Shown piece by piece: positions 1 through 12,609 of a stretch of DNA of 64,000 bases. Under the pieces are notes generated by a model. The model had not been told where the DNA came from. It searched no databases and was given only the letters and a program-made list of their open reading frames with translations. The stretch is from Bacillota bacterium (GTDB taxonomy: Bacteria > Bacillota > Negativicutes > Sporomusales > CTSoil-080). How positions within the stretch are numbered: the first letter of the stretch is position 1; each line of letters opens with the position of its first letter. The translations under genes and the position numbers were made by a program. Location of the stretch: positions 2,753 through 66,752 of the forward strand of contig JAGGAE010000015.1 of NCBI GenBank assembly GCA_017889725.1. Reading direction: 5' to 3'.

Positions 1-174
1 GTAGCAGGAGATGTTGATTACATTCTTAAAGTCCGTTGCGCTAGTACAAAAGACTTAGAAAGACTGATCAGTAAAGAGATTAAATCTTTTCCAGGTATAC
101 AAACAAAGACCATGGTGATTCTTTCAACACTAAAAGAAACTCCCATACTCCCATTAAACTTAGAAAAGGAATGA
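1..174 (+). CDS. Lrp/AsnC family regulator, C-terminal part (5' end outside window)
   Basis: Frame 1 reads VAGDVDYILKVRCASTKDLERLISKEIKSFPGIQTKTMVILSTLKE..., a typical AsnC ligand-binding domain; directly upstream of a LysE gene. Confidence 0.85.
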   Translation, partial: VAGDVDYILKVRCASTKDLERLISKEIKSFPGIQTKTMVILSTLKETPILPLNLEKE

Positions 175-178
175 AAAA

Positions 179-784
179 ATGTTGTTGTGGATTAAAGGGA
201 TAGTTTTAGGCTTTTCTATTGCCGCGCCGGTAGGGCCTATAGGCGTACTTTGCATCCGGCGTACGTTAGCCAACGGGATGAAAACTGGCTTTATTTCAGG
301 CTTAGGTGCAGCAACGGCTGACGCAATATATGGTTTTATCGCCGCACTTGGTCTTTCGGTTATATCTACTTTTTTATTAGATTATCAATTCTACCTACGC
401 CTTATTGGAGGAGGTTTTCTACTCTATTTAGGTTATACGACATGTAAATCTATGCCGGCCGAAGAAGCTGCAAGTGTAAATGGGAAAGGACTTCTCGGGG
501 CTTATACATCTACCTTATTTCTGACTATTACTAATCCGATGACCATAATGTCGTTTGCCGCTGTATTTGCAGGATTAGGAATGGGCCCTATAAGTGAGAA
601 AGATATATCGTCATTCTTTTTAGTTTTCGGTGTTTTTATTGGTTCCATGCTTTGGTGGTTAATCTTAAGTGGAACGGTTAATGTACTGCGTAATACGTTG
701 GAACAAAAACAGTTAAAATGGGTTAACAGGCTCTCAGGGCTTATAATTGCTTGCTTTGGTATATTTAGTCTAGTTTCGGTTTAA
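179..784 (+). CDS. LysE family amino acid exporter
   Basis: GFSIAAPVGP N-terminal motif, TITNP motif, about 6 TM segments. Confidence 0.9.
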   Translation: MLLWIKGIVLGFSIAAPVGPIGVLCIRRTLANGMKTGFISGLGAATADAIYGFIAALGLSVISTFLLDYQFYLRLIGGGFLLYLGYTTCKSMPAEEAASVNGKGLLGAYTSTLFLTITNPMTIMSFAAVFAGLGMGPISEKDISSFFLVFGVFIGSMLWWLILSGTVNVLRNTLEQKQLKWVNRLSGLIIACFGIFSLVSV

Positions 785-884
785 AGCCTAACATTTTATT
801 AGCTCTTTTTCTATTGCACAAATCCATGTAAAAAAAACTTAGGCAAACTGCAACCCATAACCCCCCCCCTGTTTGTGCTACCCC

Positions 885-1208
885 TTAATGTGACGTACCG
901 AACAAATTCAATCCCACGGTTCCGATTATAATAAGTAGAATACAAACTACCTTTGAAATGGATAAGGTTTCTTTAAAAAAGAATACTCCAATAGTTGTAA
1001 TTAGCACAATTCCTATTCCCGACCAAATAGCATAAGCTATTCCTATTTCAATCTTTTTTAAAGCTAGTGACAGTACCGATAAACTTAAAATATAAAAAAG
1101 CAACATTACTATTGAATACTTAATGCTCGTCATTCCCTCAGACAATTTCATCGAAATAGTACCACAAACTTCAAAAATAATTGCCAATCCAAGATAAACC
1201 CAATTCAT
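885..1208 (-). CDS. SMR family multidrug efflux protein
   Basis: WVYLGLAIIFEV (conserved Glu), IAYAIWSGIG; ATG at 1208 follows GAGGTG. Confidence 0.9.
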   Translation of the reverse strand: MNWVYLGLAIIFEVCGTISMKLSEGMTSIKYSIVMLLFYILSLSVLSLALKKIEIGIAYAIWSGIGIVLITTIGVFFFKETLSISKVVCILLIIIGTVGLNLFGTSH

Positions 1209-1385
1209 AAGCACACCTCATAATTTTTCTCTTTAATACGATCTTAAACGCTCTGATAGATACATTTCTGATAACTTCTCTAATCCAAAATCCAAAAATA
1301 AATACTAATGATTTTCTTTTCCCTGCAAAATTACAAACCCAGGAATAACGGGCCTTTCCCGCTTCCTGGGTTTTATTTTAATCCG

Positions 1386-2234
1386 TTAAGAAATTGCGTT
1401 TGGTGTAAGTCCTGTCAATATCTTCTTACATATCAACTGCAGCTGCGTCATTCCCAATGCGTCGCATGGCAAAAATTCTACCAAACTTGCACCTACAAAA
1501 CGAAATTTATCGTTCATATTGTCCAGAACTTCAGTTAATGTTTTCATAGTAATTCCTTCTTTACTGGGCCAAGCACTGAATTTAAAAGCAGTCTCCGTTA
1601 ATACATCCGTATCAATATGAACATAGACATGTGTATAGCCCTTAGATGAAATACTATGAAACACTGTCTCCGGTGATAATTCCAATACTTCCGGCGTTAT
1701 GATTTTTATTCCGGCCATTTTGATATATTCGGCTTCCGGAAGATCCAAATCCCTGGTTCCCGCCAAAATAATCTGGTCAGGCTTTAATTTAGATGGCAGC
1801 ATATGGTCGATTTCAGAATCACCTTCTCCTAATAACTGCCGGATTGGCATACCTGTGAATAATTTGCTTGGTGAACTTTCCGGAGAATTTATATCTCCAT
1901 GCGCATCGAGCCACACCACCACCAAATCGCCATTGAAACGCTGATTAAGATAACCTATGGGTGCTATACTCACACTGCAATTTCCACCTATGGTGAAAAT
2001 CGTTTCGGGATTATAATCGGTAAGCGTTTCGACAGCTGCCCTCAACTGATTTACTATCGATTTGTAGCCTATAATATTTTTCTCTAATTCTAGTTCTTCA
2101 TTCAAATCTACTGGCACCCTCTGCATCAAGAGCTTGTTTTCCAGTGCTTCAGCTAGTTGCATTGCCCCATCATAAACCTGACGCTTAGGCCCGCCTTGCC
2201 ACTGGGGAAAAACCAAATTGAGATGTTTGCACAT
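1386..2234 (-). CDS. Arginase/ureohydrolase family protein
   Basis: PQWQG, GGNCS, WLDAHGD and HIDTDV metal-binding motifs. Confidence 0.85.
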   Translation of the reverse strand: MCKHLNLVFPQWQGGPKRQVYDGAMQLAEALENKLLMQRVPVDLNEELELEKNIIGYKSIVNQLRAAVETLTDYNPETIFTIGGNCSVSIAPIGYLNQRFNGDLVVVWLDAHGDINSPESSPSKLFTGMPIRQLLGEGDSEIDHMLPSKLKPDQIILAGTRDLDLPEAEYIKMAGIKIITPEVLELSPETVFHSISSKGYTHVYVHIDTDVLTETAFKFSAWPSKEGITMKTLTEVLDNMNDKFRFVGASLVEFLPCDALGMTQLQLICKKILTGLTPNAIS

Positions 2235-2462
2235 CTACTTCCACTCCCTTAACCCATTTCTATTCGAAAATAATTCCACAAAAGAGTATACTATCCTTCC
2301 TTCGTCAATAAAGTAACGTTCGCTCAAGCACACGAGATACGGGCAATGTATTCTCGAGAAACTTAAAAGGGCCGTACAGCGCCATCTGTTCCATATTTTG
2401 CGTGTAACTTCTACAAATACTTTTCCAAATCTTTCACCTACAAAAAGAAACTGGATGAAATT

Positions 2463-2526
2463 TATCTATACCCGAAAGTAAAAGAAGCTAGATTTTTCTA
2501 GCTTCTTTTACTTTCGGGTATAGATA
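2463..2526. repeat. Perfect 30-bp inverted repeat with 4-nt loop
   Basis: TATCTATACCCGAAAGTAAAAGAAGCTAGA-tttt-TCTAGCTTCTTTTACTTTCGGGTATAGATA. Confidence 0.95.
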
Positions 2527-2981
2527 CACAATGTATTAAATCTATATGCGTCTAATTGTTATATTTCTGAATATGGAAATGTATCTAAATACCAAAACAA
2601 GTCTTCTCTAATACATATCCTTTCTCAATCTATTATCAAAATGATAGTCTTTAAAACAAGTATCTACGCAATTATAAAACTCAACCATTTTTTCGAAAGA
2701 ATAAGACTGAATTACCTCATTCATCAGGGGAATAAAATGATTCGGAAGTTTATTGCATTTTTTTAATTCGTGTAAGAGTATATTTCCAGTGTACCCGTAC
2801 CGACACCCCTGACAAGAAAATTTCGGCTAAACCACGTCTAGGCGAACATAAAACACACATATAAAACTTACTAGAAACCAGCGAGCCCTTTGAAATCAGG
2901 CTATCAACGTCACTGACTCAACATGCCATATCATAGGCAGACGATACCGATATGCAGAATTAGTCGTTTTACGTAAAAGTT

Positions 2982-3004
2982 CGCCCCCTAAAAGTAAGGG
3001 GGCG
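2982..3004 (-). terminator. Hairpin after the QueG-like gene
   Basis: CGCCCCCT-N7-AGGGGGCG immediately after the stop at 3009. Confidence 0.55.
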
Positions 3005-3008
3005 CTAA

Positions 3009-4049
3009 TTAAATGCTCAACTTCGCGCAAGCCCACTTAGCGATCTCTCTTACTTTTTCGTGTTCATCATCACAAGCGATTTTCAGATATTTTTCGTATT
3101 TAGATTCGAAATTATTCGCCATGGCAATAATAGAATTAGCTTTCCATTTCCAAAGATTTCTTTCCCTGATATACCAAAATTTTGGCTGGATGATTTCTCT
3201 AAAAATTTTATCGTCCATATTAAATACATTTTCTAAAGACATATACTCAGCTATTTTGTTTACATCCGGAAAATCTTCTTCCTCACTTAAACAATTTTTA
3301 TTCATGGGGCAAGCATCTTGGCAGGCGTCGCAACCATAAATACAGCCGCCTATTTTTTCTCTTAACTCCTCCGGCGGCAAATCATCGGCAATAGAGGTTA
3401 AGTAAGTTATACACTTTAGTGCATTCACAGTATAAGGCTTGACTAAAGCTTTGGTTCTACAGGCATCTTGGCATTTAGTGCAAGCGTTAGGGCAGGGCTT
3501 TAGAGAAGGAGTATCTATTAATTCCATCTCTTTATCCACCAGCCAGCTATCCATAACTACCCAAGAACCACTGTTTGTATAGAACAAGCTATTTTTCCTA
3601 ATGACCCCAAGTCCCGCTTTCTGCGCCGCCCACTTGTAGGCAGTTGTTCCAAAACCTAAATCATCTCTAAAAGCCTTTAGCCCTAAGGTATTTAAATAAT
3701 TATCAAACAAAATCCTATTATTATACTCTTCAGTATTCTTTGCCTTCCTGACATCAAACCAATAATGCTTGCCAATCTGGCTGCTAATATTATCAGGAAG
3801 TTTGTATTGGCCATACCGACTAACGCAAATAATGATTGATTTGGCCCATTCATGGGATTCCTGAGGTACGGCATATGGGTAGAGCAGTTTTTTATAGATA
3901 GATTTCAATTCCGGAAAAGGTTCGACATTTTCATTAAGCCTTTCAGCATAACTTTTCATTTCCTCTACTTTTATTATGCCACAGGCTTCATAACCTAATT
4001 CCAAAGCTTTCTTTTTAATTAATTCTTCAATATTATTAACATTTATCAT
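3009..4049 (-). CDS. Epoxyqueuosine reductase (QueG)-like cobalamin/4Fe-4S protein
   Basis: IKKKALELGY..CGI start, AGLGVIRKN, CPNACTKCQDAC and CIYGCDACQDACP cluster motifs, HEAT-like tail; start 4049 or 4091. Confidence 0.8.
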   Translation of the reverse strand: MINVNNIEELIKKKALELGYEACGIIKVEEMKSYAERLNENVEPFPELKSIYKKLLYPYAVPQESHEWAKSIIICVSRYGQYKLPDNISSQIGKHYWFDVRKAKNTEEYNNRILFDNYLNTLGLKAFRDDLGFGTTAYKWAAQKAGLGVIRKNSLFYTNSGSWVVMDSWLVDKEMELIDTPSLKPCPNACTKCQDACRTKALVKPYTVNALKCITYLTSIADDLPPEELREKIGGCIYGCDACQDACPMNKNCLSEEEDFPDVNKIAEYMSLENVFNMDDKIFREIIQPKFWYIRERNLWKWKANSIIAMANNFESKYEKYLKIACDDEHEKVREIAKWACAKLSI

Positions 4050-4299
4050 AAATAATTTTTCTGCCTCCACATTAATAGCATATTTGCCCAAAATTTATTA
4101 AACAATATCATATCAGTGTTTTATATTCGCTATAGTATTTCGGTGAGGGATACTATAAAGCTAACGATGGTGAGTACTAATTATAAAATCTTCAACCGCA
4201 AAAGAAAACTCCTCTACGAGATATAGATCTGTCTCATATTAGGAGGATTTTTGACGGAAGGTTATAGCCTGGATTCCAGACCAGACAGCATATTTTGAG

Positions 4300-5212
4300 T
4301 CAGCGGTCAGCTTGGAATACTAATGTAGTACCAACATTGTTTGGTATAAATGCTTTAGGCATTGCTTGAGCAATTTGGTGGATAGCAGACCAACCAGTGC
4401 AGTGACCAGGCATCTCCACCTGTCAAATGAAAACCACCTAAGACCGCATAAACTTGTTCGCAATCAGTTAGTGTTTGGGCATGACGAATGGTATTGATAA
4501 TTCCAGAATGGCAGCATCCCGTAATTATAACTAAACCCTGTCCTCGAAGATTTATAATAATACATTGATCATCTAATATTACTGGGTCATTTTCCCACTT
4601 GCCATTGCGTTTCGTATAATGGACAGGAAAACCTGTTTCAAAGTTAGTAGTTCTTGCAATCTCCCCAGAAACTAAGATCATATTATCTGCTAAGAGAGTT
4701 GCATCCGTTTTTATAATAGGTGTAATATTTTTTTGTTGGGAAGCAGATAATTTTGGCGCTGAAACACTTACTTCGTATCCACCGGGCATCATTACCTTTC
4801 TTTCTAAAAAAGTATCTGGGTGGGCTATCAGCTGTATCGGCGGGTGCTTTATTTCTTCAAGAAGAGTAGGTAGTCCCATGGTATGATCCACATGACCATG
4901 ACTAAGTATAATGGCTTGCAAGTCATTAATATCAATTTCCATTGTATGCATATTATGTAATATTCCACTAGGGCTAATGCCTGTGTCTAGTAATACTGTT
5001 TCAAGTCTATTTTCGTATTTTACCTGAATTAGGGCTGAAAAACCGTGTTCTGCTACAAGGGGAGAAAATCCATCTTTGGCAATAAGCGGACAACGTGAAC
5101 TATTAAAGCGATGTACTATTTTATTCCCAGTCATAAATGCGTCTATTGTATTGTCCATGATTATTGTTACTTTTACTTCATCAACTTCTAATAATGGAAT
5201 ATTTTTTATCAT
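4300..5212 (-). pseudogene. Metallo-beta-lactamase fold hydrolase, frameshifted by an internal deletion near 4413
   Basis: AEHGFS, LSHGHVDH, TGCCHSG, GGFHLTGG; the expected tail MPGHCTGWSAIHQIAQAMPKAFIPNNVGTTLVFQADR* lies in another frame (4413-4300). Confidence 0.8.
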
Positions 5213-5358
5213 ATAAATTTTCCACCTCTCCTTGAGTTTGGTAAATGATTTAAGAATAAAGAACCCTGCAAAAAATCCTTACAAACACATACCTATTGTT
5301 ACGAATTTTAAGTGCAGTAATTATGCATTAGCTCGTACCTCCTCCATTATAAGATTAT

Positions 5359-5386
5359 AAGACTATAAGTAAATACTTATAGTCTT
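5359..5386. promoter_or_regulatory. 13-2-13 inverted repeat, probable ArsR-family operator
   Basis: AAGACTATAAGTA-aa-TACTTATAGTCTT; partial copies (ATAAGTA, CTTATAGTC) at 5763-5794 in front of the arsR-like gene. Confidence 0.6.
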
Positions 5387-5398
5387 GCCGCGCTTTTA

Positions 5399-5749
5399 CT
5401 ATTGACACTTGTTATTATAAGAACATTGGTCACAAGAGAAATTATGCTGGCATTTCTCAAAAGCTTTCCTAAACAATTCGTTTATGTCTTTTCTGTATTC
5501 TGTCAAAACTTCAGAATTAATTGTATAGAAGACTCTAAAGCCTCTTCGGTTCTCTTCAAGAATACCAATGTTCTTTAAAACCTTTATGTGTTGAGATGCG
5601 GCAGGTTGAGAGATACCCAGTTGTAGGGCTACATCAGAAACGCAAAAAGTTTCATTAATATTTGATGCAAGCATCTTTATTATTTTTAGTCGTTTCTCAT
5701 CACCGAGAGATTTAAGGATGACAGCCATGTTTTTGAGATGATCTTTCAT
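5399..5749 (-). CDS. ArsR/SmtB family transcriptional regulator
   Basis: KSLGDEKRLKII..CVSDVA..ISQPAASQHIKVL HTH; Cys-rich C-terminal tail; TTGACA at 5810-5805. Confidence 0.9.
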   Translation of the reverse strand: MKDHLKNMAVILKSLGDEKRLKIIKMLASNINETFCVSDVALQLGISQPAASQHIKVLKNIGILEENRRGFRVFYTINSEVLTEYRKDINELFRKAFEKCQHNFSCDQCSYNNKCQ

Positions 5750-5824
5750 TAATATACCTCTCATATATAAGTATATAATTATTATCTTATAGTCATGCCC
5801 CTTTTGTCAAGTTACGTATTTCTT

Positions 5825-6105
5825 GCCAGGAACAGCGTTTGAAAAGTTCCGGTGTACCAACCGGTTTGTATATAATTCAACCGTAGCATCATCCACAGCT
5901 TTCCACAGCAATCTTTCGTCTGTTTAGGCAACTCTCTGCCACCTTCAGCGAGCTTCAGACAATTACTGTATTACATCAGTTCTCACCTGTTGCAGTTTAA
6001 GGAGAGCGTTTCAAGACGTTACCCTATCATTCCACTCTTCACCATATCAATTCTTCAAGGTTTTTACCTTGAGCCTAGGCCTTTTCAGCTAGGAACGTTT
6101 CGCAC
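5825..6105 (-). mobile_element. Group II intron 5' fragment (domain I only; no RT ORF or domain V/VI seen)
   Basis: Starts GTGCGAAACGTT exactly where the polymerase frame breaks; followed by hairpins CCTAG-N10-CTAGG and TCAAGGT-AAAA-ACCTTGA and a GGTAAC tetraloop motif; distal boundary approximate. Confidence 0.65.
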
Positions 6106-6142
6106 AGTTATTTAAATCCACATGCAGAATTGTTCGCATCAT
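6106..6142 (-). pseudogene. N-terminal stub of a Y-family DNA polymerase (DinB/UmuC/UvrX-like)
   Basis: MMRTILHVDLNN+T matches the ILHVDxNxF motif I; LexA box and promoter upstream. Confidence 0.75.
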
Positions 6143-6160
6143 TTCCCCTGCCGTATAATT

Positions 6161-6211
6161 AGAACATTTGTTCGATGTCATGATTATACGGCAGATCCAG
6201 ATGAAATTCAA
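6161..6211 (-). promoter_or_regulatory. sigmaA promoter plus LexA (Cheo) SOS box
   Basis: TTGAAT-17-TATAAT (6211-6183) followed by CGAACAAATGTTCT (6174-6161). Confidence 0.85.
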
Positions 6212-6380
6212 GCAAAAACAACACGTATGTCTTTATGGAAAACATTGTAAATTACAATCTACTCAGCACAAAAAATAAAGCCAACACCCCTTTGTCATTA
6301 ACCCTTGAACCTATTCCCTTGTTTTAGCTTTTATATGCCCCTTCTCTCGAAAATCAAGTTCAACTAAAAACCAGACGAAA

Positions 6381-6821
6381 TTAAAACTTGGCAATAACTT
6401 GATTCAATTCTTCTAATGCATAAGGACTGATTTTTAAGGTGTAATCTTTAATACCAGTACCGCCATAAACAAATGAGTGCTCAAAAAGGTTTTTATCTAA
6501 AATATGGGGAAGTGGAATTCCAACTAAAGGAACATTGCCTATGGTATAGCCCATATTCTCAACCTCTTTTGGATTTGCCAGTTTAGCTTCTTGGCAGTTT
6601 AGTATTTCAGCTACTTGTTTAAAATCAACCCTGCCACGACTTCCGGAAACAATGATTACAAAAAAACCAATATCCGTTTTGACAATCAATGTAGGTGCAG
6701 TTTGCCCAATGTCTATATTAAAGTACTCAGCTCCTTCTTGAGCTGAGCGGAGAAGGTTTTTATGATGAATTAATTTATGGGGATATTTGCTTTTATCCAA
6801 AATTGATTTTACATATTCCAT
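6381..6821 (-). CDS. YbaK/ProX-family aminoacyl-tRNA deacylase-like protein
   Basis: SAQEGA, GQTAPTLIVK, GYTIGNVP, YGGTG motifs. Confidence 0.8.
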   Translation of the reverse strand: MEYVKSILDKSKYPHKLIHHKNLLRSAQEGAEYFNIDIGQTAPTLIVKTDIGFFVIIVSGSRGRVDFKQVAEILNCQEAKLANPKEVENMGYTIGNVPLVGIPLPHILDKNLFEHSFVYGGTGIKDYTLKISPYALEELNQVIAKF

Positions 6822-6886
6822 TATAAATCATCCTTTTTCTCTGCAGCATACTTTTTCGGGAGTTATATCTAATGAAGCTTTCGACC

Positions 6887-8044
6887 TTATACACTCAGTT
6901 TCCTATCAAAAAAATTTTTGCGATTTACTATAATTGCTATAAGTGATGCTACACCTCCAAGTAAAACCAATCCAGTCCAGCCATATAGCCCACCTAGTAG
7001 ACTTCCCAGTTTTGTACCGACTGAGCCGCCAAGAAAATAGCTAGTCATGAAAGCTGTATTTAACCTGCTCCTGGCATTTTCATTTAAGGAAAATACTCTA
7101 AGTTGATTTCCGATAATGCTATGTCGAGCAGAGATATCAAGTAACACCATTGATATCGGCAAAATAAGTAAGCTATTTACTGAATAATACATGATGATGA
7201 AACCTACAAGTGAGATTATACCGCCTACCGCAACAACAAATCCCGGAGTATACGTATCGGCAAAACGCCCAACATACGGAGAGACAATAATTCCGGCTAT
7301 ACCGCTTAACCCTAATAAGCCAACCTCATGACTAGTAAGATAAAATGGAGGAAGACTGGTCAAATAGGCTACTATTCCCCATAAAGCGCTATATGCTCCA
7401 AAAATAACAAAACCGCTTAAGCAAGAACGCCTCAATTCTTTTTCGACAAAAAATAATTCAAACGTAGATTTGATTAAAGTCTTATAACTTAGCTGATTAT
7501 TACCCTTATTGGATGGAAACTTAAAATAAACAACCGAAATAATAAATAAATCTATGAACGCGGCTAAAACAAAAACAAATCTCCAGCCAAATATTCCACC
7601 AATATAACCTGAAAATAGACGGGCAAATAAAATTCCCGTTACTAAACCTGAAAGTAATATACCAACTGCGTTCCCTCTTTTTTCTTTACTAACATAAGAG
7701 GAAGCAGCGGGAACTATTATTTGGGCCCCAATGGATGTTAGACCAATAACGAAACTTGATATTTCTAAAAAAATAAAAGAATTACATAGGGAAGCCACTA
7801 GCGATGATAAAAGATTGACGAAAAGTAAACTCTGCAATAATTTTTTCCTATTGAGTTTATCTCCTAGAGGAACTAAAAATAATAATCCGGTGGCATACGA
7901 TAGTTGAACTATTGTAGGTATATTTCCTATCTCATTATGCGTAACACCAATAGAATCAGCCAAAAGCATTAATATTGGCTGGCTGTAATAGATATTGGCA
8001 ACACAAAATGCACATATAACAGACATTAAATACACAAGACTCAT
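6887..8044 (-). CDS. MFS transporter
   Basis: VANIYYSQP, LVPLGDKLNRK, ARSRLNTAFM; about 12 TM. Confidence 0.9.
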   Translation of the reverse strand: MSLVYLMSVICAFCVANIYYSQPILMLLADSIGVTHNEIGNIPTIVQLSYATGLLFLVPLGDKLNRKKLLQSLLFVNLLSSLVASLCNSFIFLEISSFVIGLTSIGAQIIVPAASSYVSKEKRGNAVGILLSGLVTGILFARLFSGYIGGIFGWRFVFVLAAFIDLFIISVVYFKFPSNKGNNQLSYKTLIKSTFELFFVEKELRRSCLSGFVIFGAYSALWGIVAYLTSLPPFYLTSHEVGLLGLSGIAGIIVSPYVGRFADTYTPGFVVAVGGIISLVGFIIMYYSVNSLLILPISMVLLDISARHSIIGNQLRVFSLNENARSRLNTAFMTSYFLGGSVGTKLGSLLGGLYGWTGLVLLGGVASLIAIIVNRKNFFDRKLSV

Positions 8045-8264
8045 ATTCCTAACACTACCTTTCGAGTACGATTCAAAAATTGCGGATTTTTTCCTCTCAC
8101 AACTATTTGAGCAACTGCAAATATTCTTTAGTAATAATATACCAACGCTACTTACCGCCTAAAAACAACTGTGGTAGTGATAGTGTATAATAGTACTACA
8201 GGTGTAACAAGATAAGCATATATCCTAGGAATTTTACTCCTAGTTTGGTAATGAGGAGCGTATA

Positions 8265-9098
8265 ATGATAAATTATGACGATATGCGAAGAAAACAGCTG
8301 GGTAATTTTCTTAAAATAAGACGAGCCAAACTTTCCCCGGAACAGGCAGGTTTTTGCCAAGGAAACCGTCGACGGACCCCTGGTTTGAGACGAGATGAAG
8401 TTTCCCAATTAATCGGTGTTAGCGTAGACTGGTATACATGGCTGGAACAAGGCCGCAACATTCATGTATCATCCAATGTTTTAGAAAACTTGGCAGCACT
8501 CTTTCAATTAAACGCAAGTGAACGTAAGCATTTATTCTTATTAGCACATCAACAATTTCCTTTAGATATTCCGGAAAACCAAAAATTTATAAACCGCACA
8601 CTGCAGCACTTCCTTGATCTTCAAGGAAGTAGTCCAGCCTATGTAACTAATTTAAAGTGGGATATTATCGCTTGGAATCAAGCTGCCTGTGAAGTTTTTG
8701 GCAATTATGGAACTATGTCGATGCGGGATAGAAATACAGTATGGAGAGCTTTTACTTCTCCTTATATGAAACAATTACTGGATGATTGGGTAGGTCATGC
8801 GCAAAAACGATTAGCTCAATTTCGCGCTAGTTACAGTCACTTGTACAATGATCCATGGTGGAATGCCATGGTAGAGGATCTTACACAAATAAGTGATGAT
8901 TTCAAAAATTGGTGGCCACGTTATGATATCCTGGACTCACCTGAGGGAACAAAATTACTTCATCATCCAACGGCCGGGGAGCTGCGATTAAGACATCTTT
9001 CTTTTCGTTTATGTGACGCGCCCAATTTAATAGCTACAGTCCATATACCGATGGATGAAAATACCGCTAATAAAATAGCAAACTTATTAAATAGTTAG
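8265..9098 (+). CDS. MmyB-family XRE-HTH regulator
   Basis: LGNFLKIRR..RRRTPGLRRDEVSQLIGVSVDWYTWLEQGR plus PAS-like ligand domain; divergent from the MFS gene. Confidence 0.9.
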   Translation: MINYDDMRRKQLGNFLKIRRAKLSPEQAGFCQGNRRRTPGLRRDEVSQLIGVSVDWYTWLEQGRNIHVSSNVLENLAALFQLNASERKHLFLLAHQQFPLDIPENQKFINRTLQHFLDLQGSSPAYVTNLKWDIIAWNQAACEVFGNYGTMSMRDRNTVWRAFTSPYMKQLLDDWVGHAQKRLAQFRASYSHLYNDPWWNAMVEDLTQISDDFKNWWPRYDILDSPEGTKLLHHPTAGELRLRHLSFRLCDAPNLIATVHIPMDENTANKIANLLNS

Positions 9099-9128
9099 TA
9101 TATAGCGATTAAAAGTTCCTCATTAATG

Positions 9129-9177
9129 AATTAACTAAAAGCCGTCCATAACGAATGGACGGCTTTGATAGTTAATT
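9129..9177. terminator. Bidirectional terminator hairpin
   Basis: AAAGCCGTCCAT-N5-ATGGACGGCTTT with outer AATTAACTA/TAGTTAATT arms between convergent genes. Confidence 0.75.
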
Positions 9178-9226
9178 ACAGCACCTCCTCAAATGGAAAA
9201 ACGCCGGCACATTGAGTGACAACAGT

Positions 9227-9439
9227 CTATTTCTCCGGCGCCTCTGTCTGGCAACCTATTAACGCATTGAGCTGCCGCTGCTCGTCCGGTGTGAAAGAAT
9301 TCCAAATTGCCCAAAATGCCTGGTGCCACTCGTCAATCACCTTTTGTTTCTCTTCTCTGGTCATAGGCGGCGGCGCTACCACCTGTACAAGACTCTTGCC
9401 GTCATTACAGTAATAGGTCGCCGCAGGCTCTTGTTCCAT
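9227..9439 (-). CDS. Small 70-aa protein, candidate recombination directionality factor
   Basis: GGGGTGGG RBS; divergent from the recombinase; function inferred from position only. Confidence 0.6.
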   Translation of the reverse strand: MEQEPAATYYCNDGKSLVQVVAPPPMTREEKQKVIDEWHQAFWAIWNSFTPDEQRQLNALIGCQTEAPEK

Positions 9440-9645
9440 ATACCCACCCCTAAAACTATTTCTATGCCGAACTCCGTCCTATCCAGCCCTAACCCATCAA
9501 CATTTTTCCGAACCTATTAGCCGTCGTAAAATTTCTATACTAATCTTCCTGCAAACTTATAAAATGAATACTACAAAGTGTGCTAAAGAAGGGGAAAAAT
9601 CATCTGCCCCAAAATGCCCCCGGGGCTTAAAAGTAAGGTGATACC

Positions 9646-11217
9646 ATGGCAAAACCTCTGCCGCCGGAACTGGAACCGGCCTGTTTTTACCTTCGCAAAT
9701 CCAGAGAAGACCAGGAAGCGGAAGCCCGCGGCGAAGGGGAAACCCTTGCCAAACATCGCAAAGCCCTTTATAAACTGGCAAACGAATACGGCATCGCCAT
9801 TACTACTGTTTTTGAAGAAATTGTCTCCGGTGAAAGCATCCTCAACCGTCCGGCTATGCTGTCCCTCCTAAAGGAAATCGAAAACGGTAAATGGCGTTCG
9901 GTATGGTGTATGGACGTCGACCGGTTGGGTCGCGGCGGAATGCAAGACCAGGGACTGCTGCTTGAGACCTTAAAAAGCGCCAGGACCAAGATTGTCACAC
10001 CCCGCAAAATTTATGACTTAAGCGACGAATTTGACGAAGAATATACCGAATTTGAAGCCTTCATGGCCCGTAAAGAATTAAAACTCATTACCCGTAGACT
10101 CCAGAGCGGCAGAAGACGCTCGGTGGAAGAAGGCAATTATCTTGGCACCCGCCCCCCCTACGGCTACCTCATACATAAAGACGCAGGCGAACGGACACTC
10201 ATTCTCCACCCCGAGCAGGCGGACACCGTCAAACTTATCTTTTCCCTCTATACCCATAGCGACCCCAAGCTGCGCATGGGCAGTGGAAAAATAGCGGCTG
10301 AACTCAACCGGCTGGGCTGCACCACCTATACCGGTAAGCCATGGGACGCCTCTACCGTACTATTTATACTAAAAAACGAAATATACCTTGGCCGGGTGCA
10401 ATGGCGAAAGAAAGAAGAAAAGAAAAGCCGCCTCTCCGGCCATAAAAAAATCGTCCGCACCCGTCCCCGCACCGAGTGGATCGATGTCCCGGGTAAACAC
10501 CCGCCTTTAGTTACCCCCGCCCAATTCACCCAAGCCCAAGAAATACTTCAAACCAGGTACCATAACCCCTGCCGGGCGGACGGTCGCCTCACCAATCCCC
10601 TGTCAGGCCTAATTCGCTGCGAAAATTGCGGTTCCGCCATGATTTTCCGCCCCTACCGTCACCAAAAATACCCCCACCTCATCTGCTGTACTCCCCACTG
10701 TCCTACTAAAAGCAGCCGCTTTGCCTACATTGAATCTGCCCTTCTTAGCGGCCTCGACGCCTGGCTGAGTCAATACCATGCCCAATTTTCCAATTACCCC
10801 GCGCCAAACAGCAACTTTAGCAGCGTAACCCTTGACGAACATATCCTCCGCAGCCTGAACAAAACCATAAAAGAGGCGGCCTTACAAAAAAATTGCCTGC
10901 ACGATTTCCTCGAAAAAGGCATTTACGACACGGCCACCTATCTCGACCGCACAGCGAAGCTTACCCAGCGTATCGCCGTAGCCGAAAAAGAAATTCTCGC
11001 CGCCGAAAACCGGCTCCAATACGAAAAAGCCCATGCAAACACACTAAACCTCCTCCCTAAGTTGACAAAACTGCTTGGCATCTACCCAAAAACCACCGAT
11101 GCCTCTTTGAAAAACCAAATGCTAAAGACCGTGCTCCGGTGCGCCCTGTACCGTAAAGACCCCACCCAGCACGGACCGGAGTTTTCTCTAAAGCTATTCC
11201 CAAAGTTGCCGCACTAA
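9646..11217 (+). CDS. Large serine recombinase (SpoIVCA-like)
   Basis: YLRKS catalytic Ser, DVDRLGR, PPYGY recombinase domain, CENCG..CCTPHC zinc ribbon, coiled coil; convergent with the sigK 5' half. Confidence 0.93.
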   Translation: MAKPLPPELEPACFYLRKSREDQEAEARGEGETLAKHRKALYKLANEYGIAITTVFEEIVSGESILNRPAMLSLLKEIENGKWRSVWCMDVDRLGRGGMQDQGLLLETLKSARTKIVTPRKIYDLSDEFDEEYTEFEAFMARKELKLITRRLQSGRRRSVEEGNYLGTRPPYGYLIHKDAGERTLILHPEQADTVKLIFSLYTHSDPKLRMGSGKIAAELNRLGCTTYTGKPWDASTVLFILKNEIYLGRVQWRKKEEKKSRLSGHKKIVRTRPRTEWIDVPGKHPPLVTPAQFTQAQEILQTRYHNPCRADGRLTNPLSGLIRCENCGSAMIFRPYRHQKYPHLICCTPHCPTKSSRFAYIESALLSGLDAWLSQYHAQFSNYPAPNSNFSSVTLDEHILRSLNKTIKEAALQKNCLHDFLEKGIYDTATYLDRTAKLTQRIAVAEKEILAAENRLQYEKAHANTLNLLPKLTKLLGIYPKTTDASLKNQMLKTVLRCALYRKDPTQHGPEFSLKLFPKLPH

Positions 11218-11225
11218 GAAATAGT

Positions 11226-11270
11226 AAAAAAGGGAGGGAAGAAAACGCCCGCATTTCTTTCCCCCCTTTT
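11226..11270. terminator. Bidirectional hairpin between the recombinase and the sigK 5' half
   Basis: AAAAAGGGAGGGAAGAAA...TTTCTTTCCCCCCTTTT. Confidence 0.6.
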
Positions 11271-11648
11271 CTATTTGCACCTATGCGTACTGCGAAAGTG
11301 CATGAGGATTTCATTTTCGATGCAGCGGGCTGCATAGGTCGCCAGTCTGGTTTTTTTGCCGGAATCAAATGTGTTGATAGCTTTGATCAGGCCAATGGTT
11401 CCAATCGAAATAAGGTCATCCACTTCTTCACCGCTATTATCAAACTTTTTGACAATGTGGGCAACCAAGCGGAGATTGCGTTCAATCAGCACGTTTTTAG
11501 CCGTTTCGTCGCCCTCTTTCAGGCGTGCCAGATAAAGCTGCTCCTCTTTTTCCGACAGTGGCAAAGGAAATGTGTTATTCGTCAAATATGCCACAAATAA
11601 AGAAAGTCCCGTGACAACCGAAGTAGCCAGGGCCAATAAAGCGGACAC
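11271..11648 (-). CDS. sigK: Pro-sigmaK, N-terminal half (spoIVCB-like), interrupted
   Basis: Hydrophobic pro-sequence, then AYLTNNTFPLPLS, LIERNLRLVAHIVKKF, DDLISIGTIGLIKAI, LATYAARCIENEILMH; regions 3-4 absent. Confidence 0.93.
   Translation of the reverse strand: MSALLALATSVVTGLSLFVAYLTNNTFPLPLSEKEEQLYLARLKEGDETAKNVLIERNLRLVAHIVKKFDNSGEEVDDLISIGTIGLIKAINTFDSGKKTRLATYAARCIENEILMHFRSTHRCK
11276..11302. other. Putative att junction of the skin-like element
   Basis: Imperfect IR TGCAC-CTATGC-GTAC-TGCGAAA-GTGCA centred where sigK similarity ends (..LMHFRST|HRCK*). Confidence 0.6.
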
Positions 11649-11680
11649 CAAACCTTTCACCCCCCGTTCAAACTGTGCTT

Positions 11681-11710
11681 TATTGTATGGGGGTGACACA
11701 AGTAACGTGC
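11681..11710 (-). promoter_or_regulatory. Mother-cell (sigmaE/sigmaK-type) promoter of sigK
   Basis: GCAC-N17-CATACAATA upstream of the GGGGGTGAAAGG RBS. Confidence 0.55.
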
Positions 11711-11807: not shown

Positions 11808-11897
11808 ATGGCGTCATATGTTGGCGATTTTGGTATTTTTTTCACCATAGTGCTTGTGGTTGTCTATGTTATGTGGGACGAACTTTTCCCCAATTAG
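11808..11897 (+). CDS. Unannotated 29-aa single-TM peptide MASYVGDFGIFFTIVLVVVYVMWDELFPN
   Basis: AGGAGAG RBS, TATAAT at 11782-11787, clean hydrophobic helix. Confidence 0.55.
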   Translation: MASYVGDFGIFFTIVLVVVYVMWDELFPN

Positions 11898-12480
11898 CGG
11901 TACCGCGGCAGGCTGCTGCCTCGCCTAGGCAAAATAGATCATAAACGGCTAAAAAGGCTGCGCCGATGACTTTGCTAAGTTTGACAACAATAGCAAGGGG
12001 TGTACTGTGTAAATCGAGATACCCCAACTGCCCTCCGGCGTTTACTACGCCGATTACGGCTATGTTTCCCACAGACGGTAGCCGATTTCCCACCGCGATA
12101 CCTGCTTCAATACCGCCTGCCCAAGCTTCGATATTACCTATTTCGCCGGTTTTCCCTAGGCAGGCATCTACAGCAACAATCAACGGGTTGCTATACCTCG
12201 CAAAAATCGTTTGGGTGACTTCCACCAGGTTTCCGGCATGCACGGGATGGTCTAAGTTGCCATAAATATTCTGCACCCCGTTTTCCGCTAAGTAAGTCCC
12301 AATAAGCGGCCCAAGCGCATCTCCTGTGTACCTGTCGGAACCAATACACAGAAATACCAAGGGCCGAGAGGTAACTTCCTTTTCGCGGGCCAGCAGACCT
12401 AAAAGATGTTCGGTTAATTTTTCACAAACATTGGCATCCGTTACTTTTACAATACCTTTATTAATAAATTTTTTCCCCAT
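11869..12480 (-). CDS. yyaC: Spore protease YyaC
   Basis: LCIGSDRYTGDALGPLIGT, PVHAGNL, AVDACLG; start moved to ATG 12480 after GAAGGAG. Confidence 0.88.
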   Translation of the reverse strand: MGKKFINKGIVKVTDANVCEKLTEHLLGLLAREKEVTSRPLVFLCIGSDRYTGDALGPLIGTYLAENGVQNIYGNLDHPVHAGNLVEVTQTIFARYSNPLIVAVDACLGKTGEIGNIEAWAGGIEAGIAVGNRLPSVGNIAVIGVVNAGGQLGYLDLHSTPLAIVVKLSKVIGAAFLAVYDLFCLGEAAACRGTANWGKVRPT

Positions 12481-12609
12481 TCTATCGCTCCTTCGGCCAG
12501 TCTCCATAAAAACTATGCGGCCATCTGCCGAATGTTTCATAAAATGTAAGAGGTTTAATATATAAAAACGCCAATCATTCCTGACCGGTCTGACTGGCGT
12601 TTATATTTT

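What the first reader, a model, noticed from the sequence alone, without database searches (positions are those of the whole stretch)
1..11710. skin-like element interrupting sigK in a probable Negativicute (programmed developmental DNA excision)
Seen: sigK stops after region 2 (..ENEILMHFRST|HRCK*). An intact large serine recombinase lies convergent right next to it, followed by >9 kb of AT-richer cargo. Known: B. subtilis (spoIVCB/spoIVCA) and C. difficile rebuild sigK by excising such an element in the mother cell. Inference: this organism does the same. The visible cargo is non-phage (exporters, arginase, QueG-like, regulators, relics), so the element looks like a domesticated island kept for its recombination unit.
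Basis: partly seen in the sequence, partly recalled or inferred. Interest (0 to 1): 0.85.

Follow-up and report, generated by a model that had tools for sequence, protein, structure and literature searches.

The report
Split sigK gene with damaged junction
This is an ordinary skin-type DNA element that splits the sporulation gene sigK in a soil Negativicute, but this copy has lost one of the two sites needed to cut it out, and the same gene carries a second such element near its end.

Summary
A sigK 5' piece (window 11271-11699, minus) lies convergent with an intact 523-aa large serine recombinase (9646-11217), followed by AT-rich non-phage cargo. The predicted sigK 3' piece exists, 2.65 kb left of the window on the same contig and on the minus strand, behind an attR that matches the relatives' motif exactly. 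The element is about 13.9 kb. It is a SpoIVCA-type skin element at the site used by orthologous elements across Bacillota (..DKEGNE|ITL..). Such elements are already published for Negativicutes.

In this contig about 20 sigK codons and the attL arm are missing, and a unique 67-nt hairpin spacer sits in their place. This copy therefore cannot be rebuilt as assembled. Other assemblies of the same organism encode the canonical 162-aa 5' piece, so the lesion is a strain deletion or an assembly fault. I could not tell which.

Two additions came from the follow-up. A second recombinase element splits sigK 17 codons before its stop (contig C16), and G002 shares it. A conserved 70-aa ORF beside the recombinase is predicted to bind it, which makes it a candidate directionality factor.

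The parts
11285..11699 (-). sigK 5' piece. It is homologous to relatives up to ..ENEILMHFRST (SigK model positions 2-125). The ORF runs on 4 unrelated codons (HRCK) to the stop at 11271-11273.
   Evidence: It is identical over residues 1-138 to the 162-aa canonical pieces P0122 and P0123.
11218..11284 (.). Unique 67-nt spacer between the end of sigK homology and the recombinase stop codon. It forms a hairpin followed by a T run (terminator-like). It occupies the place where relatives have 60 nt of sigK plus the attL arm.
   Evidence: MFE is -23.6 kcal/mol and the sequence has no other copy in the MAG. It is not significantly similar to relatives' sigK/attL: 22 to 220 of 300 shuffles reach the observed score. 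No attL motif was found.
9646..11217 (+). rec1, an intact large serine recombinase of the SpoIVCA type (523 aa).
   Evidence: Domains from Pfam and phrog_95 integrase. It is 55-65% identical over its full length to the recombinases inside the split sigK of G001, G002, G006, G030 and G040. S19 and R17 are invariant in alignment A1.
9227..9439 (-). Conserved 70-aa ORF, divergent from rec1. It belongs to no known family and is a candidate recombination directionality factor.
   Evidence: tblastn hits in 32 of 103 recombinase loci, mostly 200-500 nt upstream of the recombinase on the opposite strand. Alignment A2 has 14 sequences. The complex model scores 0.69 against a best control of 0.00. No Pfam, PHROG or phage match.
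9440..9645 (.). Divergent intergenic region between the small ORF and rec1. The promoters that would time excision are presumed to lie here.
   Evidence: Sequence read. No promoter test was made.
1..9170 (.). AT-rich, non-phage cargo of the element. It continues 2.65 kb left of the window to attR at C12:92-119.
- AsnC/Lrp regulator, C-terminal end: 1-174 (+)
- LysE exporter: 179-784 (+)
- SMR: 885-1214 (-)
- arginase family: 1386-2234 (-)
- 4Fe-4S (Fer4_16) protein: 3009-4091 (-)
- MBL fold: 4355-5212 (-)
- ArsR: 5399-5764 (-)
- YbaK/tRNA_edit: 6381-6821 (-)
- MFS: 6887-8044 (-)
- MmyB-like regulator: 8265-9098 (+)
   Evidence: Apart from the sigK 3' piece and attR, no DNA left of rec1 is similar to relatives' elements.
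11869..12540 (-). yyaC (spore protease YyaC). This is the host flank upstream of sigK and a synteny marker, not part of the element.
   Evidence: TIGR02841 at 141 bits. The order HDIG protein, yyaC, sigK is kept in the relatives' loci.

Best explanation
The window holds the recombinase end and 11.3 kb of a 13.9-kb SpoIVCA-type sigK-intervening (skin) element. The host is a soil MAG of the Sporomusa/Pelosinus group of Negativicutes.

**How such elements work.** This rests on published work on B. subtilis and C. difficile, not on anything shown here. In the mother cell the large serine recombinase, helped by a small directionality factor, recombines attL with attR. The element leaves as a circle and the sigK pieces join in frame.

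**What is present here.** The element sits at the site used by its orthologues (..DKEGNE|ITL..). Its attR, its recombinase and a conserved small partner ORF are intact.

**What is missing here.** At the other end, about 60 nt of sigK and the attL arm are gone from this contig. The apparent junction HFRST|HRCK* is therefore a lesion, and this copy cannot rebuild sigK as assembled. Other assemblies of the same organism encode the canonical 5' piece. My odds are roughly 55:45 for a real strain-level deletion that locks the element, against a local assembly fault.

**Second interruption.** sigK in this organism is interrupted a second time, 17 codons before its stop, by a smaller element with its own recombinase (rec2, with NRAMP and nitroreductase genes, on contig C16). 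The species' sigK therefore lies in three pieces and would need two excisions.

**Shown:** the anatomy, the orthology, the shared site, the lesion and the selection on the pieces.
**Inferred:** excision itself, its timing, the role of the small ORF, and that C16 adjoins C12.
For: - **sigK 5' piece and recombinase:**
- **sigK 3' piece:** it lies at C12:1-99 (-), 33 codons, 94% identical to an intact SigK, and runs off the contig end.
- **attR:** C12:92-119 matches the relatives' motif ACAGATAA-N6-AGTGTNAATGANAT with 0 mismatches.
- **rec1 orthologues:** they sit in the same convergent position beside the 5' piece in G001, G002, G006, G030, G040 and G008.
- **Shared insertion site:** 47 of 80 related recombinase loci from Bacillota carry a sigK piece within 3 kb. 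All break at residues 140-163 of the reference SigK and none near residue 128.
- **State of sigK in the order:** of 41 genomes, 20 have an intact sigK, 13 are split near model position 145, 3 near position 115, and only this one at 125.
- **Joining test:** joining at the shared core gives a 234-244-aa ORF in 4 of 4 relatives.
- **The lesion:** the missing codons were not found anywhere in the MAG. The attL motif is absent at up to 4 substitutions.
- **Canonical allele:** P0122 (3 contigs) and P0123 (2 contigs) are identical to the window's piece over residues 1-138 and then continue ..RRTRTEVSLYDPIGVDKEGNE|FTL*. The window's form is on 1 contig only.
- **Selection, G000 against G001:** pN/pS is 0.044/0.68 for piece A, 0/0.84 for piece B and 0/0.97 for the tail.
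- **Second element:** the sigK tail is at C16:17763-17813 and is 17 of 17 residues identical to G001's. It lies beside nitroreductase, NRAMP and rec2 genes. G002 has the orthologous rec2 (62%), NRAMP and nitroreductase directly after a sigK piece that stops at ..SRIEK.
- **Small ORF:**. The score is 0.69 against a best control of 0.00. That mark was reached by 58 of 80 solved complexes and 2 of 110 mismatched pairs. The runs agree in at least 88% of contacts and the partner's pLDDT is at least 74.
- **Other sporulation genes intact:** yyaC, spoIIGA, sigE, sigG, spoIIR and yabG.
Against: - No excision product (attB or attP junction) was seen for either element.
- The one public run found holds only small fragments.
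- The DNA of the sister contigs could not be fetched. The deletion boundaries, and whether those contigs are truly the same strain, are inferred from protein identity and contig counts only.
- The MAG is 65% complete, so a separate intact sigK cannot be excluded. None was found.
- The left junction of element 2 is not assembled. The right end of C16 shows no sigK-like sequence, and sigK residues 177-217 lie in no contig. The C16-C12 adjacency and the integrity of that junction are therefore inferred.
- G002's sigK tail was not found.
- SpoIVA was not found in G000. This is uninformative at 65% completeness.
- Conservation of the tail could partly predate the insertion of element 2.
- The complex prediction is a model's confidence, made with my own alignments.
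Confidence: 0.8

Rival explanations
1. One reading: HFRST|HRCK* is the recombination junction, and excision of this very copy in the mother cell rebuilds a working sigK.
For: The recombinase is intact and convergent beside the break. The 3' piece lies on the same strand of the same contig.
Against: - The 3' piece starts at ..NEITL, 20 codons after ..HFRST, and the missing codons are nowhere in the MAG.
- No attL motif or shared core lies at the break.
- A serine recombinase exchanges strands at a shared core and cannot supply 60 nt. This rests on established knowledge, and attL x attR is required in C. difficile (PMC5025042, passages seen).
- Every orthologous element breaks at GNE|I.
Confidence: 0.03
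2. Decay: the organism has given up sporulation. The sigK pieces, both elements and the recombinases are relics on their way to loss, and the missing attL is one step of that decay.
For: - attL and 20 codons are lost in the window's copy.
- The junction beside rec2 is not recognisable at the C16 end.
- SpoIVA was not found in G000.
- The MAG is small at 1.79 Mb, against 3.3-4.5 Mb in G001 and G002.
Against: - The small size reflects 65% completeness.
- There is no frameshift or stop in any of the 128 + 33 + 17 retained sigK codons, and pN/pS is very low.
- rec1 and rec2 are full length.
- yyaC, spoIIGA, sigE, sigG, spoIIR and yabG are intact.
- The canonical 5' piece is present on 5 contigs of other assemblies, against 1 contig with the lesion.
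Confidence: 0.1
3. An ordinary active mobile element (prophage or integrative element) that merely uses sigK as its attachment site and has no developmental role.
For: - SpoIVCA-like recombinases are interspersed with phage integrases (Galperin et al. 2022 preprint, passages seen).
- rec1 matches phrog_95 integrase.
- G001's 5-kb element carries a 322-aa ORF (L031 2306-3274) that I read by eye as YqaJ-like; I did not run it against any family.
Against: - There are no capsid, tail, replication or conjugation genes in the 13.9 kb.
- The cargo shares nothing with relatives' elements beyond the recombination unit.
- Some relatives' elements are only 2.8-5 kb, too small to move on their own.
- The orthologous recombinase, site and orientation are kept across the order, with divergence similar to that of host genes: rec1 62-65%, yyaC 67-72%.
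Confidence: 0.07

Closest known systems
skin element of Bacillus subtilis 168 (spoIVCB / spoIVCA / spoIIIC, RDF Skr)
   Same: [quoted passage not shown] Reconstitution goes by attL x attR in the mother cell (PMC6957869 and PMC4191935, passages seen). Recombinases related to rec1 (43-65% identity) sit beside a split sigK in many Bacilli.
   Different: This element is 13.9 kb with no phage genes, against 48 kb and prophage-like. Skr overlaps the 5' end of spoIVCA on the same strand, whereas the conserved small ORF here is divergent and separate. I could not compare it with Skr because I had no Skr sequence. This copy lacks attL. I did not place B. subtilis SpoIVCA itself in an alignment.
skinCd of Clostridioides difficile (CD1231 recombinase, CD1234 RDF)
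   Same: It is a 14.6-kb, non-inducible element (Galperin et al. 2022 preprint). The recombinase needs a small partner for attL x attR (PMC5025042).
   Different: Its attB lies in a different region of sigK (PMC6957869). No sequence comparison with CD1231 or CD1234 was made here.
skin elements reported in 15 Firmicutes including Negativicutes (Galperin et al. 2022 preprint, 10.1101/2022.02.25.481979; Pelosinus fermentans named)
   Same: This is the same kind of element in the same class: 2.6-48 kb, with a SpoIVCA-like recombinase always at the edge and otherwise unrelated cargo (passages seen). That matches.
   Different: The preprint says the elements share no gene other than the recombinase. 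Here a small ORF is shared by 32 of 103 loci. A second interruption of sigK is not mentioned in the passages I saw. Its Table S7 and Figure 2 were not available to me.
Interruption elements of heterocyst genes in Anabaena (nifD, fdxN/XisF, hupL)
   Same: Developmental excision takes place in a terminal cell. rec1's best NCBIfam hit is XisF, far below its cut-off (84.8 against 375 bits). That several elements can sit in one gene in cyanobacteria is recalled, not checked.
   Different: The phylum, the target genes and the cell type all differ. This is an analogy only.
gin element in gerE of Bacillus cereus ATCC 10987
   Same: It is a non-prophage intervening element with a serine recombinase, reconstituted during sporulation (PMC5595907, title and abstract seen).
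   Different: It interrupts a different gene. No sequence comparison was made.

Membership tests
sigK-intervening (skin) element, SpoIVCA type | sigK pieces flank the element in the same orientation and order on one replicon | tested here: met
   The 5' piece is at C12:14037-14451 (-) and the next piece at C12:1-99 (-), on the same contig.
sigK-intervening (skin) element, SpoIVCA type | [quoted passage not shown] | tested here: met
   rec1 is 55-65% identical over its full length to the recombinases inside the split sigK of 5 relatives, in the same convergent position. 47 of 80 related loci have a sigK piece within 3 kb.
sigK-intervening (skin) element, SpoIVCA type | Insertion at the family's attB inside sigK | tested here: met
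   The attR side lies at ..AAATGAGAT|TACACT.. (GNE|ITL), as in G001, G002, G006, G030 and G040. The motif matches with 0 mismatches.
sigK-intervening (skin) element, SpoIVCA type | A matching attL with the same core as attR | tested here: not met
   No attL motif was found in the whole MAG at up to 4 substitutions. The spacer is not similar to relatives' attL. The canonical 5' piece that ends ..GNE|FTL exists only in other assemblies.
sigK-intervening (skin) element, SpoIVCA type | Excision restores one in-frame full-length sigK | tested here: not met
   For this copy, 20 codons are absent and a second element intervenes. As a control, 4 of 4 relatives give a 234-244-aa ORF when joined at the core.
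sigK-intervening (skin) element, SpoIVCA type | Excision occurs during sporulation, in the mother cell | not testable with these tools
   No usable reads: the run X1 holds only small fragments.
sigK-intervening (skin) element, SpoIVCA type | A cognate recombination directionality factor | tested here: inconclusive
   A conserved small ORF lies beside rec1. Binding is predicted at 0.69 against a best control of 0.00. No functional test was made, and it resembles no named RDF.
Large serine recombinase | N-terminal resolvase catalytic domain with the nucleophile serine, a recombinase domain and a zinc ribbon | tested here: met
   PF00239, PF07508 and PF13408 are all above their cut-offs for rec1 and rec2. 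S19 lies in the invariant motif YLRKSRED of alignment A1. That this serine is the nucleophile is inferred from its position.
Sporulation sigma factor SigK (TIGR02846) | Best match to the SigK model rather than SigE, and conserved synteny | tested here: met
   195.6 bits for SigK against 146.2 for SigE. The score is below the full-length cut-off because this is a fragment. It is 72-84% identical to intact SigK of relatives. yyaC and an HDIG gene lie upstream, as in relatives.

The most novel reading that the evidence does not exclude
In this family of soil Negativicutes, sigK is a three-piece gene. Two unrelated large serine recombinases (31% identical), each in its own element at its own site (..GNE|ITL.. 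and ..SRIE|KRA..), must both excise in the mother cell to rebuild one sigma factor. The SpoIVCA-type unit also carries a so far unannotated 60-70-aa partner protein, conserved from Bacillus to Sporomusa, that would act as its directionality factor.
Probability: 0.5. Interest if true: 0.6.

Novelty: new member of a known kind. Interest (0 to 1): 0.42.

Why it matters
The finding as given adds one more skin element to a list that already includes Negativicutes, so it does not change the picture. Three points are of some use.

- **An annotation trap.** A frame that stops inside sigK next to a recombinase looks like the junction, but here it is a lesion. The true site lies 20 codons further on, and the element as assembled is locked. 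If the deletion is real, it is a natural example of how a domesticated excision unit fails and takes sporulation with it.
- **A doubly interrupted sigK.** It would require two coordinated DNA rearrangements for one regulator. This can be tested with reads or PCR.
- **A candidate directionality factor.** A conserved small ORF predicted to bind the C-terminal part of the recombinase offers a candidate for a widespread recombinase family. Such factors are hard to find by sequence.

Tried and rejected
- **Middle sigK piece inside or outside the element (a nested or third interruption).** Neither a six-frame motif scan of C12:1-16000 nor a sensitive tblastn of the whole MAG found it. Rejected for this assembly.
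- **The spacer as a decayed sigK/attL.** Local alignments to 5 relatives are no better than shuffles: 22, 220, 22, 102 and 82 of 300 shuffles reach the observed score. By eye, the spacer read in another frame (IGANRKGGKEM) resembles IGVDKEGNEI. I do not rely on this.
- **The spacer as a repeated insertion.** It has no other copy in the MAG.
- **Independent DNA for the junction.**
  - One exact 23-nt scan of metagenome contigs found nothing.
  - A protein-guided scan found 14 related loci, the nearest 76% identical over a part and none of the same species.
  - One public run (X1, soil metagenome, word share 0.05) laid at 85% likeness gave 6 small pieces on C12:14060-15601. None lay on the junction or the element. 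This gives no evidence either way.
- **C16 right end as sigK.** No significant similarity to G001 or G002 sigK: scores 20 and 19, against shuffle means of 17.5 and 17.6.
- **G002's sigK tail.** It was not found on contig C34. A degenerate pattern did not find it in the whole genome. It is not beside the CsgG-like orthologue.
- **Synteny downstream of the tail.** Only the CsgG-like gene itself is shared with G001 and G002.
- **An skr-like overlapping ORF.** Window 9614-9871 overlaps the start of rec1 in another frame. No such ORF of 60 aa or more is listed in G001, so I treat it as chance.
- **Naming the small ORF.** No hit in Pfam, PHROGs or phage tblastn with two members, and the Atlas gave only hypothetical clusters, all under 0.9.
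- **dpaA.** TIGR02853 was not found in G000, G001 or G002, so it says nothing about decay in G000.
- **Literature on a doubly interrupted sigK.** One full-text search found nothing relevant among its 15 listed papers. This is one search and does not show that the case is unpublished.

Full report
**1. The observation**

The window is G000:C12:2753-66752 of a MAG with 1.79 Mb in 108 contigs, 65% completeness and GC 0.453.

- The ORF at window 11271-11699 (-) matches the SigK model TIGR02846 over positions 2-124 at 195.6 bits. The best other match is SigE at 146 bits. It carries only sigma-70 region 2.
- Window 9646-11217 (+) is a 523-aa large serine recombinase, called rec1 here, with Resolvase, Recombinase and zinc-ribbon domains. 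It is convergent with the sigK piece.
- GC is 0.35-0.40 across window 1-9000 and 0.45-0.52 from there on.
- The cargo is non-phage: an AsnC/Lrp regulator, LysE, SMR, an arginase-family protein, two 4Fe-4S proteins, a SnoaL-like protein, MBL-fold, ArsR, YbaK-like, MFS and MmyB-like proteins.

**2. The other end of the element**

Searching the MAG with the C-terminal halves of five intact SigK proteins from relatives gave one clear hit. It lies at C12:1-99 on the minus strand, at the very left end of the same contig: 33 codons, NEITLIDVLGTAPDVVAEAVEIQCEQERLNRQI, 94% identical, running off the contig.

Just inside it, C12:92-119 matches the relatives' attR motif (ACAGATAA-N6-AGTGTNAATGANAT) with no mismatch. 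The element therefore spans about C12:100-14036, or 13.9 kb. Of this, 11.3 kb lies in the window.

**3. The family it belongs to**

The nearest recombinases are in two soil MAGs (G002 65%, G001 62%), Sporomusa aerivorans and S. acidovorans, Pelosinus, Massilibacillus and Propionispora. Below them come Brevibacillus, Thermoactinomyces, the Bacillus cereus group, Paenibacillus and Clostridium at 43-55%.

State of sigK in the 41 genomes of the order that were searched:

| State of sigK | Genomes |
|---|---|
| Intact | 20 |
| 5' piece ends near model position 145 | 13 |
| 5' piece ends near model position 115 | 3 |
| 5' piece ends at position 125 | 1 (this one) |

- Where both pieces lie on one contig, the elements are 2.8 to 58 kb long.
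- In G001, G002, G006, G030, G040 and G008 the rec1 orthologue sits exactly as here, convergent and 47-130 nt from the end of the 5' piece.
- Of 80 related recombinase loci from across Bacillota, 47 have a sigK piece within 3 kb. In all of them the break falls at residues 140-163 of the reference SigK, and in none near 128.
- Joining the two pieces at the shared core in silico gives a single 234-244-aa ORF in 4 of 4 relatives tested.

This is the SpoIVCA-type skin system. Skin elements in 15 Firmicutes, Negativicutes included and Pelosinus fermentans named, have been described (Galperin et al. 2022 preprint, passages seen).

**4. The lesion**

Intact SigK of relatives reads ..ENEILMHFRST RRTRTEVSLYDPIGVDKEG NEITLIDVLG... 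In relatives the 5' piece runs to ..GNE and is followed by the attL arm (AATGANATNNCACT-N6-TTATCTGT).

In the window, sigK homology stops after ..HFRST at window 11285. A unique 67-nt sequence follows. It folds into a hairpin of -23.6 kcal/mol with a T run and leads straight to the rec1 stop codon.

- The missing codons were not found anywhere in the MAG.
- No attL-like or attB-like site exists at up to 4 substitutions.
- The spacer is not significantly similar to relatives' sigK or attL.

A serine recombinase exchanges strands at a core shared by its two sites, so this copy cannot be excised precisely, and even then 20 codons would be lacking.

**5. Whether the lesion is real**

The protein database holds a 162-aa SigK 5' piece in two forms: P0122 (on 3 contigs, longest 71,963 bp) and P0123 (on 2 contigs, longest 54,777 bp). 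Both are identical to the window's product over residues 1-138. They then continue canonically to ..RRTRTEVSLYDPIGVDKEGNE|FTL*. The window's 142-aa form is on one contig only, of 67,343 bp, which is C12. The exact rec1 protein is on 3 contigs, the longest again 71,963 bp.

So other assemblies of the same or a nearly identical organism carry the canonical junction. The window's form is then either a deletion in the strain or population that gave this MAG, or a local assembly fault.

- I could not decide between them. The sister contigs could not be fetched, two metagenome scans found no near-identical DNA, and the only public run found holds small fragments that do not touch the junction.
- A de Bruijn assembler needs a shared k-mer to skip about 100 nt, and I see none. 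I therefore lean slightly towards a real deletion, about 55:45.

**6. Is the gene alive?**

Differences between G000 and G001:

| sigK piece | Codons | pN | pS | Differences |
|---|---|---|---|---|
| A | 115 | 0.044 | 0.68 | not counted here |
| B | 30 | 0 | 0.84 | not counted here |
| C-terminal tail | 16 | 0 | 0.97 | 11 synonymous, 0 non-synonymous |

- No retained piece has a frameshift or an internal stop.
- rec1 and rec2 are full length.
- yyaC, spoIIGA, sigE, sigG, spoIIR and yabG are intact.
- SpoIVA was not found, which means little at 65% completeness.

This speaks against long-standing decay. It fits a functional split gene in the species, with a recent or spurious lesion in this contig.

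**7. A second interruption**

A 17-codon sigK tail with its stop codon (EKRAITKLNRNLSAEDGV*) lies at C16:17763-17813 (-). It is identical in protein to G001's tail.

- Upstream of it, in the sigK sense, lie a nitroreductase gene, an NRAMP gene, a 120-aa ORF and a second large serine recombinase, rec2. rec2 is 472 aa at C16:20345-21763 and 31% identical to rec1. It ends 19 nt before the contig end.
- In G002, of another genus, sigK piece B stops at ..YVSRIEK. It is followed directly by the rec2 orthologue (62%), an NRAMP gene (80%) and a nitroreductase gene (62%).
- The two half-pictures agree on one insertion site, in the codons I-E-K of region 4.2.
- G001 lacks this element: its 3' piece is continuous to the end.
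- rec2 has no other close relative in the 40 genomes of the order. The next best is 46% identical.

The likely order in this organism is: yyaC, piece A, [rec1 .. cargo .. attR], piece B, [rec2 .. NRAMP .. nitroreductase], tail.

Limits of this part:
- sigK residues 177-217 and the junction beside rec2 fall in the gap between the right end of C16 and the left end of C12.
- The C16 end shows no sigK-like sequence.
- G002's tail was not found.
- In another assembly rec2 lies on a 94,901-bp contig and rec1 on a 71,963-bp contig, so that assembly also breaks between them.
- A rec2-like protein (P0242) and a sigK 5' piece (P0130) both have 193,457 bp as their longest contig. This hints at one contig that carries both. 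I could not read it.

**8. A partner for the recombinase**

The ORF at window 9227-9439 (-) encodes 70 aa and is divergent from rec1.

- It is conserved next to related recombinases in 32 of 103 loci searched, from Negativicutes to the Bacillus cereus group. A few of these loci are the same genomic place fetched twice.
- Fourteen sequences align with a core YDATY..G.T.VHVVAPPPMT.EE....L.E.H.A.W.
- It has no Pfam, PHROG or phage match.
- A complex prediction with my own alignments scored 0.69 (median of three runs) against a best control of 0.00. That mark was reached by 58 of 80 solved complexes and 2 of 110 mismatched pairs. The runs agree in at least 88% of contacts and the partner's pLDDT is at least 74.
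- The predicted interface covers rec1 residues 361-385, 469-498 and 510-523, the C-terminal part.

This supports, but does not show, binding. It makes the ORF a candidate directionality factor. In B. subtilis the factor Skr overlaps the 5' end of spoIVCA on the same strand (PMC6957869). In C. difficile it is CD1234 (PMC5025042). I could compare sequences with neither.

**9. Verdict**

As a kind of system this is known: a new member of the SpoIVCA-type skin elements, in a class where they are already reported.

- It is wrong about the junction.
- It is not valid for this copy as assembled.
- The parts worth following up are the second element, which would make sigK a three-piece gene needing two recombinases, and the conserved small partner ORF.

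Noticed in passing
G000:C16:17763-21782 (outside the window): A second large-serine-recombinase element (rec2, a 120-aa ORF, NRAMP, nitroreductase) separates the last 17 codons of sigK from the rest. G002:C34 has the orthologous set directly after its sigK piece.
   Followed up: partly
G000:C82:28077-29570 (L152 6078-7571, +): A third large serine recombinase (497 aa) lies convergent with spoIIR, next to sigG, sigE and spoIIGA. Beside it is a 139-aa membrane-protein ORF that I did not run against any family. Related recombinases lie within a few kb of sigE in G004, G018 and G033 (compare). It may mark another intervening element.
   Followed up: no
G018, G032 and G035: In three genomes of genus g6, sigK is split at a different place. 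The 5' pieces end at model positions 115-116. G018 and G032 also have 3' pieces, starting at positions 97 and 109, so the two pieces overlap. In G032 the pieces lie 25 kb apart. This points to a second class of sigK site in the order.
   Followed up: no
window 9614-9871 (+): An 85-aa basic ORF overlaps the first 226 nt of rec1 in another frame, reminiscent of skr/spoIVCA in B. subtilis. No such ORF of 60 aa or more is listed in G001.
   Followed up: partly
L040 3918-5531 (G002:C34, -): G002's rec2 ORF reads through the element junction into the antisense strand of sigK (537 aa, against 472 aa here). Its C-terminus would therefore change on excision.
   Followed up: no
sigK 5' pieces of G001, G006, G030 and G040; window about 11306-11313: The core-like octamer AATGAAAT occurs a second time in sigK, at the codons ENEI of region 2.4, 29 codons upstream of the true core at GNEI. 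Joining there would also stay in frame, giving ORFs of 205-215 aa. The window's lesion does not start at this site.
   Followed up: partly
C12 left end and C16 right end: This MAG, and at least one other assembly, break between rec2 and attR, inside the short sigK piece B. In that other assembly the exact rec1 is on a 71,963-bp contig and the exact rec2 on a 94,901-bp contig. Structural heterogeneity there, such as excised forms, is one possible cause.
   Followed up: no
G000, G001 and G002, whole genomes: dpaA (TIGR02853) was not found in any of the three, although G001 and G002 are 98-99% complete.
   Followed up: no
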